From a virus: 64,000 nucleotides of DNA. The stretch spans positions 14,720-78,719 of the IMG/VR virus record IMGVR_UViG_3300033153_006492. One strand, written 5' to 3'. A program made the translations under genes and the position numbers. Under the pieces are notes generated by a model. That model ran no database searches and had not been told where the DNA came from. It saw only the letters and a program-made list of their open reading frames with translations. Below are positions 135 to 32,462 of this stretch, in pieces. Position 1 is the stretch's first letter. The number at the start of each line of letters is the position of its first letter.

Positions 135-551
135 ATGAATCATTTACGCAAATATCGTAACAATCCATTTTTATCAACTACATTATTCGATGAAATGTTG
201 GGTGAATTATTTCAACCGCGCGTTTCATACGACGCAGCTAAAATTGATGTTAAGGAATATGATGATAAAGTTGAAGTTATTGCAGAAATTCCTGGGTTTA
301 CAAAAGAAGACGTTACACTCGAATATGAAAAAGGACATCTGACAATTACTGGCGAATTAAAAAAGGATGCTGCTGAAGAAACTGGTAAATTTTTACACAA
401 AGAAATTGGTAGCCGGTCATTCGCTCGCAAATTTAATCTTGGAGATTTATTTGATGTATCTAAAATTGATGCTACGTTCAATGATGGTATACTAAGTATT
501 ACATTACCAAAGAGTGAAGACGAAAAGTCTCGCAAAATTACCATCAAATAA
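135..551 (+). CDS. hsp20: small heat-shock protein (Hsp20/alpha-crystallin)
   Basis: AEIPG, FARKFNL and ATFNDGILSITLPK motifs; GGAG RBS. Confidence 0.95.
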   Translation: MNHLRKYRNNPFLSTTLFDEMLGELFQPRVSYDAAKIDVKEYDDKVEVIAEIPGFTKEDVTLEYEKGHLTITGELKKDAAEETGKFLHKEIGSRSFARKFNLGDLFDVSKIDATFNDGILSITLPKSEDEKSRKITIK

Positions 552-1447: not shown

Positions 1448-1677
1448 TTTTAGGGTCGGAGATGCAACGTTACCTCAGACGAAGCTGAAGAGAAGGTGAG
1501 TTTTCATACTTTACTCACTAACCATTCTATAAAACGAAGCCGAAAGGTTAGAATGGTCAGTATAAGTGTCTTGATAATAACAAACAAGTAAAAAGTCATT
1601 GATATAACAATGTAAATAAAAACGTGGAATAAACTACGGAATAAACAATTCTTCGTTGGTCATAATTTATCCTAAAG
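1448..1677 (+). ncRNA. Y-RNA-like RNA 1 (long)
   Basis: TTTTAGGGT(C bulge 1457)GGA pairs with TTTATCCTAAAG; CAACG pairs with CGTTG; GTTACCTC motif; upstream of Ro60. Confidence 0.75.
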
Positions 1678-1682
1678 CATTT

Positions 1683-1792
1683 TAAATGGGTCGCTGGTAC
1701 AGGGTTACCTCAATCGAAAACTGCGGCGTTCGCGCCGTAGGTGAAGCAGGACGTGATGCTCGTCAATCTCCTTGTCCACTTTTATCCGTTTA
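1683..1792 (+). ncRNA. Y-RNA-like RNA 2
   Basis: TAAATGGGT(C bulge 1692)G pairs with TATCCGTTTA; TGGTACAGGG pairs with CCTTGTCCA; same GGGTCG-N10-GTTACCTC as RNA 1; internal CTGCGGCG-TTCG-CGCCGTAG hairpin. Confidence 0.8.
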
Positions 1793-1809: not shown

Positions 1810-1883
1810 TGCGGGGTAGAGCAGTCTGGTAGCTTGCTTGGCTCATAACCAAGTGGTCGCTGGTTCAAATCCAGCCCCCGCAA
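1810..1883 (+). tRNA. tRNA-Met(CAT), initiator-like
   Basis: Full cloverleaf: TGCGGGG/CCCCGCA acceptor, CTTGG-CTCATAA-CCAAG, GCTGG-TTCAAAT-CCAGC; fMet-like D arm; CCA not encoded. Confidence 0.95.
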
Positions 1884-1915
1884 CTTTATAGGTCTTTCAC
1901 AATATAATAATACAA

Positions 1916-2239
1916 GTCCTCGTGGCCGAATAACACGTATAGGCGTGTAAGGCATTGTAGCCCCAGCTGAAAAGCTTGGGGAGCGAGTTACGAACTTGGT
2001 GCGGATAAGGTGGCGACGTTCTGGAAGTGAGATCAACTTTTGGGGTTGAAATAAACAGAAACGAGCGCACGATTGCAGAAATCCCCTAATACTTGGCATA
2101 TAGCTACTATCTGTGATTATGAAGGTACAATCAATCCTTCCACTATTTAAAGATAAATTTCGACGGAGATTTATTGGTGTGACTGAAAAATCCAAGTCCA
2201 GGCGTACGTTTGTGGGTAGATGCGAATCCCACCGAGGCA
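1916..2239 (+). ncRNA. unrecognised ~320-nt structured RNA with tRNA-like ends
   Basis: CCTCG(1918-22)/CGAGG(2233-37) acceptor-like stem; GTGGG/CCCAC T-like arm; GCC/GGC D-like stem; many internal stems; GC-richer than flanks; followed by a T run. Confidence 0.7.
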
Positions 2240-2268
2240 TTTTTTTATTAAAGTAACAAAACATTATT

Positions 2269-2330
2269 ATTGGGTCGTGAATGATGGTCATCGAGCATTC
2301 GTAAAAAACATCATTCAACATTTATCTGGT
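2269..2330 (+). ncRNA. Y-RNA-like RNA 3 (minimal, ~60 nt)
   Basis: ATTGGGT(C bulge)G pairs with TATCTGGT; TGAATGATG pairs with CATCATTCA; 3' TTTATC motif shared with RNAs 1 and 2. Confidence 0.65.
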
Positions 2331-2345
2331 TAATATTTTTAAGTG

Positions 2346-2377
2346 AACCCGCCAGATATTTCTGTGCGGGTTTTTTT
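2346..2377 (+). terminator. intrinsic terminator between the ncRNA cluster and the Ro60 gene
   Basis: AACCCGC-CAG..CTG-T-GCGGGTT followed by a T run. Confidence 0.75.
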
Positions 2378-2422
2378 GTTTATAAATTAGAGTCATTAAT
2401 TCTAAATCAGGAGGTACATATC

Positions 2423-4111
2423 ATGCAAAAGTATAACAAACATGTAAACACACAAAAGACTTCACAACAAGAAGCAATTTTAGGTCGTGAAAAAGAAATG
2501 GCAAAGAACTATGCTGGTGGTGTAGTTTTTAAATTAGACGATTGGAAGGTACTTGATAGGTTCTTAATTCTTGGAAGCGACAAACCTACTTACTATGCGT
2601 CTGCTCAAAAATTGACTAAAGAACATGCTAAGAATGTAATGGGATTAATTCAGGAAGATGCTAAGCGTGTCGTAGACCGTGTAGTTGAAATTTCATTAGC
2701 TGGTCGCGCACCAAACAACGATCCAGCATTATTCATTCTTGCGATGGTTGCAGGATTGGCTGACGACGAAGGAAAGAAATATGCACTTAGTGTTCTTTCT
2801 AAAGTAGCCCGTATTGGAACACACTTATTTCACTTTGCAGAATATGTACAAGGGTTTCGAGGTTGGGGTCGTGGATTAAGAAATGGAATTGCCAAATGGT
2901 ATCTTGAAAAGGATATTGATAAATTGGCTCTTCAAGTTGTAAAATATCAATCTCGCGATGGATGGTCTCACCGAGACATTCTTCGTAAGACTCACGTACA
3001 AGCCTTCAACGATGATATGAACAAAATTTTCGCTTGGGTTACACATGGAATTGGCGGCGAAATGAAAGTTAAGGGTGGAGAAACTGTAGAGACATTTCCA
3101 CATACTGTTAATGATGTAAAGGACATTAAATTGATCTATGCATTTGAAATGGCTAAGAAAGCAACGTCGGAAGATGAAATCGTTGCTTTGATTAAGGAAT
3201 ACAGATTGCCAAGAGAAGCTATTCCTACGAATTTCATGGGTAAGAAAGTTTACCGAGCTCTTTTACCAGGGATGCCTATGACTGCGTTAATTCGGAATTT
3301 AGGTAACCTGTCGAAGAATGGAATTCTTGTTGCTGGAAATTTTGACGACATTAATATGGTTGTTGAAAAAATTACTAACGAAGAAAACCTTAAAAAAGCA
3401 AGAGTTCATCCTATGCAATTGTTGATGGCAATGAAAACTTACGGAGCTGGACACGGAATGCGTGGGAAAGGTGAATGGAAAGTTGTACCACAGATCGTTG
3501 ATGCTTTGGATGAAGCATTCTACAAAGCATTCTCATTTATTGTACCATCTGGAAAACGAATTCTTATTGCGCTTGATATTTCCGGTTCAATGGGTATGGA
3601 TTACGGTGTGGCTGGTATTACTGGATTTACACCAAGAGAAGCATCTGCTGCTATGGCAATGGTAACGATGAAGGCAGAAAAGAATTGGGCAATTGTAGGA
3701 TTTTCTGGTGGATATGGTAATGGGAGTTGGAATAATAACCGTGATGAATTAATCACATTGGATTTATCACCGAACATGAGATTGAATGATGTTGTTAGAA
3801 AGGTAAGCAATTTACCATTTGGGTCTACTGATTGTGCATTACCTGCTGTTTGGGCGAAAAAAAATAAACTGGACTTTGATGCGATCTACATTTATACAGA
3901 CAGCGAAACTTGGGTTGGAAACATTCAACCGGTTCAAGCGATGAGAGATTATCGTAAAGCTGTTGGACATGATGTTAAACTTGTTGTGGTAGCAATGACC
4001 TCGACTGGATTCACAATTGCTGATCCAAAAGACGCCTCTATGCTTGACGTTGTAGGATTTGATAGTAATGCACCTGCAATAATGTCAAGCTTTGTAGACG
4101 ATAAATTATAA
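2423..4111 (+). CDS. rsr: Ro60/Rsr RNA-binding protein (TROVE + vWA)
   Basis: LDRFLILGS..TYY, RGWGRGLR, KYQSRDGWSHRD, MPMTALIRNL, ARVHP, MIDAS DISGSM, TDCALP, YTDSET, MLDVVGFD. Confidence 0.97.
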   Translation: MQKYNKHVNTQKTSQQEAILGREKEMAKNYAGGVVFKLDDWKVLDRFLILGSDKPTYYASAQKLTKEHAKNVMGLIQEDAKRVVDRVVEISLAGRAPNNDPALFILAMVAGLADDEGKKYALSVLSKVARIGTHLFHFAEYVQGFRGWGRGLRNGIAKWYLEKDIDKLALQVVKYQSRDGWSHRDILRKTHVQAFNDDMNKIFAWVTHGIGGEMKVKGGETVETFPHTVNDVKDIKLIYAFEMAKKATSEDEIVALIKEYRLPREAIPTNFMGKKVYRALLPGMPMTALIRNLGNLSKNGILVAGNFDDINMVVEKITNEENLKKARVHPMQLLMAMKTYGAGHGMRGKGEWKVVPQIVDALDEAFYKAFSFIVPSGKRILIALDISGSMGMDYGVAGITGFTPREASAAMAMVTMKAEKNWAIVGFSGGYGNGSWNNNRDELITLDLSPNMRLNDVVRKVSNLPFGSTDCALPAVWAKKNKLDFDAIYIYTDSETWVGNIQPVQAMRDYRKAVGHDVKLVVVAMTSTGFTIADPKDASMLDVVGFDSNAPAIMSSFVDDKL

Positions 4112-4167
4112 TACAGAACGCCGGGTGACTAAGGAGAGCCAGGAGAGTTGTGTACACAACCACATAC

Positions 4168-4195
4168 GCCGCCCCATTTTAGTGGGCGGCTTTTT
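4168..4195 (+). terminator. intrinsic terminator after rsr
   Basis: GCCGCCC..GGGCGGC plus TTTTT. Confidence 0.8.
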
Positions 4196-4220
4196 ATTCT
4201 AAAAAAATCTAAAAATAAAC

Positions 4221-31449: not shown

Positions 31450-31785
31450 GGGAGCGTTCATGGATTCGATCAGAGGATAAAAGTAAATGACAGCAATACG
31501 TTGGGAAACGTAAAATCTAATAAAGAATAATTAACAACTCATATCAACTTGCTGCGTAATTAATTGCGTAGTCGTCAATCCATCTTTTGTCGAGAGGTGG
31601 AAATTGACGCCGTATTCGACAAGAACTTTTGGTGGTAGGTCAAAACAAAAATATCTACTCGTGGGTAATAAATTTTCTTGTTTATTTTTAGTTTATTTTA
31701 CACGTTAAAATTTAAGAATAAACTATTATTGTAGAAGTCATTTAAGTTTGCTTTTGAGACGCGGGCTCGATTCCCGCCGCTTCCA
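31450..31785 (+). ncRNA. ssrA: tmRNA
   Basis: GGGAGCG/CGCTTCC-A acceptor with G3-U70; GGATTCGA; T arm GCGGG-CTCGATT-CCCGC; pk1-like element; tag frame ..NNSYQLAA* at 31533-31559. Confidence 0.93.
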
Positions 31786-31813
31786 CTTTTAATTTAATAC
31801 AAAGGAGAATTGA

Positions 31814-32353: not shown

Positions 32354-32425
32354 GTGCCATAGGTGTTACTGGAAGCACGCCACGTTGCCAACGTGGAGGA
32401 ACGAGTTCAAGCCTCGTATGGCGCT
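32354..32425 (+). tRNA. tRNA-Gly(GCC)
   Basis: GTGCCAT/ATGGCGC acceptor, CCACG-TTGCCAA-CGTGG, ACGAG-TTCAAGC-CTCGT, U73 discriminator. Confidence 0.93.
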
Positions 32426-32462
32426 CTTTTTTTATTATACTCAAAAACGAAGGAGAATTAAG

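What the first reader, a model, noticed from the sequence alone, without database searches (positions are those of the whole stretch)
1916..2239. Unrecognised ~320-nt multi-stem RNA built on an expanded tRNA-like frame
Seen: the ends mimic a tRNA. There is an acceptor-like stem CCTCG(1918-22)/CGAGG(2233-37), a T-like arm GTGGG(2212-16)/CCCAC(2228-32) with an enlarged loop ending GCGAAT, and a D-like GCC/GGC stem with an extra ACACG/CGTGT hairpin. Internal pairings: TTGTAGC(1955-61)/GTTACGA(1987-93) enclosing a CCCAGC/GCTTGGG hairpin; GTGCG/CGCAC; CGTTCTG/CAGAAACG; GATAAGGTGGC/GCTACTATC (crosses GTGCG/CGCAC, so a pseudoknot or alternative fold); GATTG/CAATC into the loop of GAAGG/CCTTC; ATAAATTTC-GACG-GAGATTTAT. 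CCAA at 2192-95 has three possible TTGG partners. Two CTGAAAA stretches (1967, 2183) resemble a Phe(GAA) anticodon loop. Inference: a new large structured RNA, possibly matured by tRNA-processing enzymes, acting as a ribozyme, an intron-containing tRNA remnant, an anticodon-nuclease decoy or a Ro60 partner. I cannot match it to tmRNA, RNase P, a group I intron, GOLLD, ROOL or raiA from memory.
Basis: partly seen in the sequence, partly recalled or inferred. Interest (0 to 1): 0.85.

Follow-up and report, generated by a model that had tools for sequence, protein, structure and literature searches.

The report
Enlarged manA-type RNA beside phage Ro60
The flagged 324-base stretch is a real, conserved folded RNA gene of an uncultured phage. 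It is not a new class: it is an enlarged, uncatalogued relative of the known but functionally unexplained manA RNA, here placed inside a cluster of tRNA, Y-RNA-like and Ro60 genes.

Summary
Window 1916-2239 (+) folds into a multi-helix RNA. Five other uncultured phages carry full-length homologues, and a seventh locus holds a 3' fragment. On the six-sequence alignment, 87 modelled pairs are 93.7% paired, against 35-48% when partners are slid, and 47 pairs change on both sides. No reading frame is conserved.

The reading "unrecognised new class built on a tRNA frame" is only partly right. The two ends match the core of the manA RNA motif (Rfam RF01745): closing helix, GUG-RCY-GAAUAA-hairpin-UAAGGY arm, and a 5-bp hairpin with an 11-nt loop. 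Scanned separately, each end gives manA as the top Rfam family, in the right order. Bridging relatives score 27-67 bits against manA. The whole RNA scores only 12 bits (cut-off 55.2), because its centre is a different, roughly 215-nt branched arm.

tRNA mimicry is not supported. The two "Phe anticodon loops" are a GAAA tetraloop and an internal loop, and the D-like loop covaries with a distant segment rather than with the T-like loop.

Function is unknown. The best guess is a free-standing RNA that may self-assemble, as a 2026 preprint reports for manA. What is unusual here is the setting between tRNA-Met, three Y-like RNAs and rsr.

This scan has already found enlarged manA-type RNAs in other phages.

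The parts
1918..2237 (+). Whole folded RNA, from the first to the last base of closing helix P1 (CCUCG 1918-1922 with CGAGG 2233-2237)
   Evidence: Five full-length homologues and one 3' fragment found by nhmmer. P1 covaries at 4 of 5 pairs.
1923..1954 (+). 5' manA-type arm: UG linker, stem GCC 1925-27 / GGC 1951-53, internal loop GAAUA 1928-32 opposite AA 1949-50, inner hairpin 1933-38 / 1943-48 with loop AUAG 1939-42
   Evidence: Aligns to manA model positions 22-69. The inner hairpin is 100% paired and 4 of 6 pairs covary. The same motif found 11 more viral loci.
1955..1986 (+). Hairpin P3: UUGU 1955-58 / GCGA 1983-86 and 1962-68 / 1973-80, capped by a GAAA tetraloop (1969-72) closed by U-A
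   Evidence: Also present in L171, L181 and L177.
1990..2209 (+). Long branched arm specific to this subfamily: P4 1990-92/2207-09, P5 1995-99/2198-2202, P6 2003-06/2190-93, P7-8 2009-17/2176-84, P9 2022-27/2137-42, P10 2033-39/2043-49, P11 2069-78/2111-20, P12 2152-61/2166-75
   Evidence: RNAalifold and pair counts. Most helices covary; P10 never changes on both sides.
2003..2011 (+). One strand (GGAU-AA-GGU) of a second copy of the GAAUA/AA internal-loop module. Its partner strand is ACU-GAAAA-AUCC at 2182-2193.
   Evidence: Read from alignment A5. The flanking base pairs match those of the 5' arm module.
2079..2110 (+). 32-nt terminal loop of P11. It holds the conserved AAAUCCCC and AGCUACU, and CUAU 2107-10, which pairs with the 5'-arm loop AUAG 1939-42 (pseudoknot or kissing contact, PK1).
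   Evidence: PK1: 24 of 24 cells paired and 2 of 4 pairs covary (AU/GC and UA/CG). CCCC 2083-86 could pair with GGGG 2042-45, but both are invariant, so that pairing is untested.
2212..2232 (+). 3' manA-type hairpin: 5-bp stem GUGGG/CCCAC with 11-nt loop UAGAUGCGAAU
   Evidence: Aligns to manA model positions 146-192. Two pairs covary. The pattern taken from it found L170 and L171.
2240..2246 (+). U-run just after the closing helix; possible transcript end
   Evidence: Present in all six window-type copies and in L171/L181. The simple terminator scan does not call it, so this is inferred.
1810..1884 (+). tRNA-Met (CAT), 33 nt upstream (context)
   Evidence: ARAGORN and Rfam, 67 bits. A tRNA-Met lies next to the RNA in L001, L091, L009 and L171.
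1453..1786 (+). Two Y-RNA-like elements (1453-1671 and 1688-1786), beginning GGGUCG and ending UUUAUCC (context)
   Evidence: Motif scan, conserved in L089, L091, L001, L009, L093 and L096; alignment A1.
2272..2378 (+). Short Y-RNA-like hairpin (2272-2326) and a GC-rich hairpin plus U-run (2349-2378) just before rsr (context)
2423..4111 (+). rsr, the Ro60 orthologue (context)
   Evidence: Pfam TROVE 1.4e-35 and vWA_Ro60 8.8e-59.

Best explanation
Window 1918-2237 encodes a free-standing structured RNA of the manA superfamily.

It keeps the manA end modules:
- the closing helix;
- the GUG-RCY-GAAUAA-hairpin-UAAGGY arm;
- the 5-bp hairpin with an 11-nt loop that runs straight into the 3' strand of the closing helix.

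The manA centre is replaced by a GAAA-capped hairpin and a roughly 215-nt branched arm. That arm carries a second GAAUA/AA internal loop and a large hub loop.

Shown: the RNA is conserved, non-coding and on the + strand; its helices covary; its ends are manA-like; the loop of the 5' arm pairs with the hub loop.

Inferred: it is made with the neighbouring tRNA-Met and Y-like RNAs and ends at the U-run. Like manA RNAs in vitro, it may use loop-loop and GNRA contacts to build a defined multimer, acting as an RNA scaffold during infection rather than as a tRNA mimic or a gene switch. Its biological role is not known for any member of the family.
For: Homologues: five full-length copies and one fragment, with E-values from 1e-28 to 1e-99.

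Structure: 93.7% of cells paired and 47 of 87 pairs changing on both sides, against 6-16 for slid controls.

Non-coding and strand:
- Every frame is broken by stops in every homologue.
- Invariant G-U pairs fit only the + strand.

Link to manA:
- L170 was found with this family's 3' hairpin pattern and scores 67.4 bits against manA, whose cut-off is 55.2.
- L179 scores 35.6, L180 32.9, L177 28.7 and L171 27.4 bits.
- The first ~80 nt of L171, L181 and L177 align with the window RNA, with compensated hairpins.
- The window's 5' end alone gives manA positions 22-69 as the top hit of 4227 families (E 0.41). The 3' end alone gives manA positions 146-192 as the top hit (E 0.3).

Self-assembly of manA RNAs through kissing loops and a GNRA contact is reported in preprint 10.64898/2026.07.01.735769. 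Here there is a covarying loop-loop pairing (1939-42 with 2107-10) and an invariant GAAA tetraloop.

The RNA is a separable module. Sister loci L093 and L096 keep the Y-like RNAs, tRNA-Met and rsr but lack it. Relatives sit in tRNA/tmRNA clusters with no TROVE gene in the record.
Against: - The Rfam manA model gives only 12 bits (E 1.9) on the whole RNA and about 10 bits per end. Neither end is significant alone, so homology rests on a chain of intermediates plus the agreement of two weak hits.
- The central architecture differs from the manA consensus.
- No transcript evidence was obtained, and no promoter or canonical terminator was found.
- Oligomerisation is extrapolated from a preprint on shorter RNAs. 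PK1 may simply be an intramolecular pseudoknot.
- The tight, conserved linkage to rsr in all six window-type loci could reflect a Ro60-related role.
Confidence: 0.65

Rival explanations
1. It is a Ro60-associated RNA: either an oversized Y-RNA/YrlA-type tether that Ro60 binds, or a preferred Ro60 substrate, working with the three small Y-like RNAs of the locus.
For: All six window-type copies lie on the same strand as rsr and at most about 1.4 kb upstream, inside a conserved array of Y-like RNAs. Chen et al. 2014 (PMC4201824) used 'within 4 kb and on the same strand' as their criterion and found tRNA-like domains in Y RNAs. The internal loops contain YGAA, which resembles the CGAA motif of Y RNAs.
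Against: It lacks the GGGUCG...UUUAUCC terminal helix that the neighbouring Y-like RNAs share. GNCGAA fits only the window copy; the others read ACUGAA. Sister rsr loci L093 and L096 lack the RNA. Relatives L170, L171, L177, L181 and others have no TROVE gene in their records, though these are fragments. About 150 other phage rsr loci lack the 5' motif.
Confidence: 0.2
2. It is a cis-acting leader or riboswitch of rsr, in line with Rfam's classing of manA as cis-regulatory. Formation of the closing helix next to the U-run would decide read-through into rsr.
For: Weinberg et al. 2010 place manA RNAs in likely 5' UTRs. The RNA is upstream of rsr on the same strand, and the closing helix is followed by a U-run. 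Short relatives lie about 100-150 nt upstream of a gene that looks like T4 gp32, a resemblance I recalled and did not test.
Against: A separate Y-like RNA and a second hairpin plus U-run lie between it and rsr. In L009, a tRNA-Met and about 1.2 kb separate it from rsr. In L171 the next gene is a tRNA 2-3 nt downstream. In L177 it sits between two tRNAs.
Confidence: 0.1
3. It is a tRNA mimic or decoy matured by RNase P, RNase Z and the CCA-adding enzyme, for example to soak up host anticodon nucleases.
For: The layout resembles a tRNA: closing stem, UG, 'D' arm, one base, hairpin, long arm, 'T' hairpin, closing stem. It lies among tRNA genes, and in L171 the 5' end of a downstream tRNA would define its 3' end.
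Against: ARAGORN and the Rfam tRNA model do not detect it. The closing stem has 5 bp and no CCA. The 'T' loop has 11 nt. The 'D' loop covaries with 2107-10, not with the T-like loop. The supposed anticodon loops are a GAAA tetraloop and an internal loop.
Confidence: 0.08
4. It is a new RNA class unrelated to manA, and the similar ends are convergent or shared small modules.
For: 12 bits against the manA model. The central domain is different and the molecule is about 130 nt longer.
Against: Both ends match manA in the right order and as the top family. Relatives form a graded series up to 67 bits. The first ~80 nt are shared with relatives that score 27-29 bits.
Confidence: 0.1

Closest known systems
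manA RNA motif (Rfam RF01745; Weinberg et al. 2010, PMC2864571; cryo-EM assemblies in preprint 10.64898/2026.07.01.735769)
   Same: A closing helix joins the 5' and 3' ends. The 5' arm reads GUG-RCY-GAAUAA-hairpin-UAAGGY. The 3' hairpin has 5 bp and an 11-nt loop (GGGUA...AAUCCC) and runs directly into the closing helix. Both have a multi-helix junction and are carried by phages. Here an Hsp20 gene lies upstream in the window, and manA was reported upstream of ibpA-type chaperone genes.
   Different: About 324 nt against a 192-position model. The centre is a GAAA hairpin followed by a ~215-nt branched arm, instead of a three-hairpin arm followed by a hairpin. There is a second GAAUA/AA module. 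It scores 12 bits against a cut-off of 55.2. It sits in a Ro60/Y-RNA/tRNA cluster and is followed by a U-run, not a coding gene.
Bacterial and phage Y RNAs, YrlA type (Chen et al. 2014, PMC4201824; phage phiLo Yrl1/Yrl2, PMC12135203)
   Same: Encoded next to rsr on the same strand, among other small RNAs. Has tRNA-reminiscent hairpins and a YGAA-containing internal loop.
   Different: No Ro60-binding terminal helix of the kind its own neighbours carry. Relatives occur away from rsr. Ro60 binding is untested.
GOLLD and ROOL large phage RNAs
   Same: Large, ornate, non-coding and phage-borne. From my own knowledge they often lie beside tRNA genes and have been reported to form RNA-only multimers.
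   Different: No Rfam match to either at E up to 10. This RNA is smaller, and I saw no shared sequence modules.
tmRNA
   Same: Similar size, with paired ends next to a T-like hairpin.
   Different: The Rfam tmRNA models do not hit it. It has no GGGG...ACCA ends and no conserved open frame. The phage has a true tmRNA at 31450-31788 (110.8 bits).

Membership tests
manA RNA (RF01745) | Score at or above the Rfam gathering cut-off (55.2 bits) | tested here: not met
   No hit at gathering. 12 bits, E 1.9, on 1922-2086. 10.4 and 10.9 bits for the two ends scanned separately.
manA RNA (RF01745) | 5' arm GUG-aCU-GAAUAA-hairpin-UAAgGu directly after the closing helix | tested here: met
   cmscan aligns 1922-1962 to model positions 22-69, and manA is the top family. 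The arm covaries in six homologues.
manA RNA (RF01745) | 3' hairpin of 5 bp with an 11-nt loop (GGGUA...AAUCCC), followed at once by the 3' strand of the closing helix | tested here: met
   cmscan aligns 2196-2242 to model positions 146-192, and manA is the top family. Covariation.
manA RNA (RF01745) | Closing helix pairing the 5' and 3' ends | tested here: met
   1918-22 with 2233-37; 4 of 5 pairs change on both sides.
manA RNA (RF01745) | Consensus central domain: an arm with three hairpins, then a long hairpin | tested here: not met
   Here a GAAA hairpin is followed by a ~215-nt branched arm, compared with the consensus line.
manA RNA (RF01745) | Homology chain to members above the cut-off | tested here: met
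   L170 scores 67.4 bits. L179, L180, L177 and L171 score 27-36 bits. L171, L181 and L177 align with the window over ~80 nt. The nhmmer profile of the window family hits both ends of L171.
manA RNA (RF01745) | RNA-only homo-oligomer built on pentamers (preprint) | not testable with these tools
   Only indirect: a covarying loop-loop pairing and an invariant GAAA tetraloop.
Y RNA / YrlA | Terminal helix with the conserved Ro60-binding motif (GNCGAAN0-1G, or a bulged helix) | tested here: not met
   The closing helix has no such motif. GCCGAA occurs only in the window copy, and the others read ACUGAA. The neighbouring Y-like RNAs share GGGUCG...UUUAUCC, which this RNA lacks.
Y RNA / YrlA | Encoded within 4 kb of rsr on the same strand | tested here: met
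   True of all six window-type loci. Not true of relatives L170, L171, L177 and L181.
Y RNA / YrlA | Bound by Ro60 | not testable with these tools
   Needs EMSA or co-immunoprecipitation.
tRNA / tRNA-like | Cloverleaf recognised by tRNA models: 7-bp acceptor stem, 7-nt T loop, D-loop/T-loop elbow | tested here: not met
   No hit from ARAGORN or Rfam tRNA on 1916-2239. The stem has 5 bp and the loop 11 nt. The D-like loop covaries with 2107-10.
tmRNA, RNase P, group I intron, GOLLD, ROOL, raiA, OLE, HEARO | Match to the Rfam covariance model | tested here: not met
   None listed on 1916-2239 at E up to 10.

The most novel reading that the evidence does not exclude
The enlarged arm adapts a self-assembling manA-type RNA to the Ro60 system. 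On this reading the RNA forms a multimeric shell or platform that presents its two GAAUA/AA modules, and it recruits or organises Ro60/Y-RNA particles, or their RNA substrates, during infection. That would be the first functional link between RNA-only assemblies and an RNA quality-control machine.
Probability: 0.1. Interest if true: 0.8.

Novelty: new variant of a known kind. Interest (0 to 1): 0.42.

Why it matters
manA RNAs have been known since 2010 without a function, and a 2026 preprint reports that they build RNA-only cages.

This case adds two things. The family extends well beyond the Rfam model, into larger forms of ~275-325 nt that the model misses. Several members, and many of those sampled here, sit among tRNA or tmRNA genes and end in a U-run, which fits a free-standing RNA better than a riboswitch.

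The window-type subfamily is fixed between tRNA-Met, Y-like RNAs and rsr. That offers a concrete protein, Ro60, and concrete RNAs to test for a partner relationship. The covarying loop-loop pair gives a direct mutational handle on assembly.

It is a useful extension of a known family, not a new class.

Tried and rejected
- Rfam at gathering and at E up to 10 on the region: no family reached its cut-off.
- ARAGORN: no tRNA or tmRNA in 1916-2239.
- blastn against 50,697 cultured-phage records with the window RNA, L171 and L170: only tRNA matches or chance 31-nt matches.
- First exact-motif scans of viral contigs gave chance hits in GC-rich coding DNA: L003, L006, L007.
- The genome contigs pattern scan gave two isolated matches, L172 and L173, which matched only at the 3'-hairpin pattern in the nhmmer check (E 0.003 and 0.09) and which I took as chance without inspecting them.
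Flanks of the closest Ro60 relatives came from the search for related loci instead.
- The look-up of sequencing runs, kind rna: no RNA holder was listed.
- The promoter/terminator consensus scan found no convincing promoter and no terminator by its rules.
- A full-length covariance model was not built, because ~335 positions exceed the calibration limit.
- The 179-aa minus-strand ORF 1782-2321 was rejected as a gene, because stops occur in every frame in all homologues.
- A second 5'-motif match in L091 (4276) lies in coding sequence and was taken as chance.
- An extension of the T-like stem with a GCGA tetraloop, a K-turn reading of the 5' arm, and a pairing of the T-like loop with 2095-2104 were considered by eye and dropped. 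The homologues do not keep them.

Full report
**Setting.** The window is part of an IMG/VR virus record of 78.7 kb, estimated about 37% complete. The flagged stretch lies on the + strand, 33 nt after a tRNA-Met(CAT) at 1810-1884. It lies about 185 nt before a 562-aa gene at 2423-4111 that matches Pfam TROVE (1.4e-35) and the Ro60 vWA domain (8.8e-59), so that gene is an rsr/Ro60 orthologue. Other first-reader notes on this genome pointed to Y-RNA-like elements in the locus. I checked this. Elements that begin GGGUCG and end UUUAUCC lie at 1453-1671, 1688-1786 and 2272-2326. The same three types recur in the related loci.

**Is the RNA real?** The single-sequence fold is unremarkable (-92.8 kcal/mol, z = -1.34). 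The comparative evidence is strong.
- The Ro60 protein led to related viral and metagenomic loci.
- A profile search then found full-length homologues of the RNA in L089/L090, L091, L097, L001 (also held as L002, L010, L094) and L009 (also L092, L169). L095 holds a 3' fragment at a contig end.
- RNAalifold on the six distinct sequences predicts 83 pairs, 45 of them with compensatory changes.
- I added one loop-loop helix and counted pairs on the alignment. Of 87 pairs in 16 helices, 93.7% of cells are paired. Column shuffles give 80.0% (0 of 500 reach the observed value) and slid partners give 35-48%.
- 47 pairs change on both sides, against 6-16 for the slid controls.
- No reading frame survives in the homologues. 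The 111-codon open stretch on the minus strand is peculiar to the window.
- Invariant G-U pairs fit only the + strand.

**Anatomy, in window coordinates.**
- P1 is 1918-22 with 2233-37.
- A UG linker follows.
- The 5' arm has stem 1925-27/1951-53, an internal loop GAAUA (1928-32) opposite AA (1949-50), and an inner hairpin 1933-38/1943-48 with loop AUAG.
- One base (1954) follows.
- Hairpin P3 (1955-58/1983-86 and 1962-68/1973-80) carries a GAAA tetraloop closed by U-A.
- The long arm (P4-P8: 1990-2017 with 2176-2209) contains a second copy of the same GAAUA/AA-type internal loop (2007-08 opposite 2185-89). It opens into P9 (2022-27/2137-42), P10 (2033-49), P11 (2069-78/2111-20, with a 32-nt loop) and P12 (2152-61/2166-75, loop GACG).
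- The 3' hairpin is 2212-16/2228-32 with an 11-nt loop. It is followed at once by the P1 3' strand and a U-run.
- The loop AUAG (1939-42) pairs with CUAU (2107-10) in the P11 loop. All 24 cells are paired, and two positions switch AU to GC and UA to CG. It is either a pseudoknot or an intermolecular kissing contact.
- GGGG 2042-45 and CCCC 2083-86 could also pair, but both are invariant.

**What is it?** Rfam gives no family at its cut-off. At E up to 10, the only hit inside the element on its strand is 12 bits to manA. More distant relatives made that weak hit meaningful.
- A degenerate pattern of the 3' hairpin found L170 (~175 nt) and L171 (~275 nt) in viral contigs.
- A pattern of the 5' arm found eleven more loci, L176-L186.
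- L170 is a full-length manA match: 67.4 bits against a cut-off of 55.2.
- L179, L180, L177 and L171 score 35.6, 32.9, 28.7 and 27.4 bits.
- The manA consensus printed shows the modules that are conserved here: closing helix, GUG-aCU-GAAUAA-hairpin-UAAgGu, and UG-ugGGUA...AAUCCcaCC running into the closing helix.
- Scanned alone, the window's 5' end returns manA positions 22-69 as the best of 4227 families (10.4 bits, E 0.41). The 3' end returns manA positions 146-192 as the best (10.9 bits, E 0.3).
- Each hit is weak. By my rough estimate, the same family coming top at both ends, in the right order, would happen by chance at about 1 in 10,000 or less.
- L171, L181 and L177 also align with the window RNA over its first ~80 nt, including the GAAA hairpin, with compensated stems.

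I therefore file the element as an enlarged, sub-threshold relative of manA. It is not a member by Rfam's score, and its central domain differs.

**What is known about manA.**
- Weinberg et al. 2010 described manA from marine metagenomes, T4-like cyanophages and two gamma-proteobacteria. [quoted passage not shown] A 2023 phage paper repeats that its regulatory role is unverified.
- A July 2026 preprint reports by cryo-EM that manA RNAs form pentamer-based octamers and decamers and a 60-subunit cage, held by kissing loops and a GNRA-receptor contact. This is in vitro work. The preprint's discussion does not tie the assemblies to a function in the phage or host.

**Context, and what it says about function.**
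- In the window and in L089 the order is long Y-like RNA, medium Y-like RNA, tRNA-Met, this RNA, short Y-like RNA, rsr. L091 and L001 shuffle the tRNA and the medium Y-like RNA. In L009 the tRNA-Met and about 1.2 kb lie between the RNA and rsr.
- Sister loci L093 and L096 (Ro60 65% and 64% identical) keep the Y-like RNAs, tRNA-Met and rsr but have no such RNA. The RNA is therefore a separable module.
- None of about 150 more distant phage rsr loci carries the 5' motif.
- Conversely, the relatives lie in tRNA/tmRNA clusters. L171 has tmRNA, tRNA-Met, the RNA, then tRNA-Thr 2-3 nt later. L181 has tmRNA, a tRNA, then the RNA. In L177 the RNA sits between two tRNAs of a large array. In L186 a tRNA follows directly. 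Other relatives lie upstream of a gene that looks like T4 gp32, a resemblance I recalled and did not test.
- None of their records holds a TROVE gene, though all are fragments, the largest being 100 kb.
- This pattern, plus the U-run after the closing helix in the tRNA-linked forms, favours a free-standing RNA made with the tRNAs. It argues against both a switch for the downstream gene and an obligate Ro60 partner. Neither is excluded for this subfamily.

**tRNA mimicry.** The order of helices around the junction does recall a class II tRNA. The tests fail, however.
- There is no ARAGORN or Rfam tRNA signal.
- The closing stem has 5 bp with no CCA.
- The 'T' loop has 11 nt.
- The 'D' loop covaries with the P11 loop, not with the T-like loop.
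- The two CUGAAAA stretches are a tetraloop and an internal loop.

From memory, and untested, the GAAUA/AA module resembles the UAA/GAN internal-loop motif.

**Limits.**
- No expression data could be obtained.
- A full-length covariance model could not be calibrated, so the manA link rests on Rfam's own model, bridging sequences and shared modules.
- Six sequences give good but not exhaustive covariation. The P9 region has two competing pairings.

**Relation to earlier notes of this scan.** I had reached the manA assignment before I looked the family up in the scan's notes. Those notes hold several followed-up cases of enlarged manA-type RNAs in phage tRNA clusters on other DNA. This finding is one more member of that recurring group. 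Its distinguishing feature is the Ro60/Y-RNA setting.

**Verdict.** This is a real RNA, a new variant of a known kind, of moderate interest.

Noticed in passing
window 1453-1671, 1688-1786, 2272-2326: Three Y-RNA-like elements (GGGUCG...UUUAUCC; about 220, 100 and 55 nt) flank the tRNA-Met and the manA-type RNA upstream of rsr. The same three types recur in L089, L091, L001, L009, L093, L096 and L095.
   Followed up: partly
window 31450-31788 and 32354-32426: The phage record carries its own tmRNA (Rfam 110.8 bits; ARAGORN did not call it) and a tRNA-Gly(GCC).
   Followed up: no
L089 1086-1203: The tRNA-Met counterpart in the closest relative is 118 nt long. About 44 nt are inserted just after the CAT anticodon. 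Rfam tRNA gives 46.7 bits and ARAGORN finds nothing. It may be a small intron or insertion in a phage tRNA.
   Followed up: partly
L097 1599-4072: The rsr gene is split after about residue 144 by roughly 770 nt, with a frame change (tblastn pieces 1599-2030 and 2801-4072). It may be an intron or a mobile insertion in a phage Ro60 gene.
   Followed up: partly
window 4112-4200; L091 3536-3625: A short conserved GC-rich element and a terminator-like hairpin directly follow rsr in both phages. This may be another small RNA or a 3' UTR structure.
   Followed up: no
L096 136-208: ARAGORN calls a tRNA with anticodon CTA (labelled Pyl), that is, a candidate amber-suppressor tRNA, in a sister phage locus.
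   Followed up: no
window 135-551: An Hsp20/IbpA-type chaperone gene lies about 1.4 kb upstream on the same strand. Weinberg et al. 2010 listed ibpA chaperone genes among those found downstream of manA RNAs.
   Followed up: no
L170 7183-7563; L179 4074-4289: Permuted (two-piece type) tmRNA genes lie in the same phage RNA gene clusters as the short manA-type RNAs.
   Followed up: no
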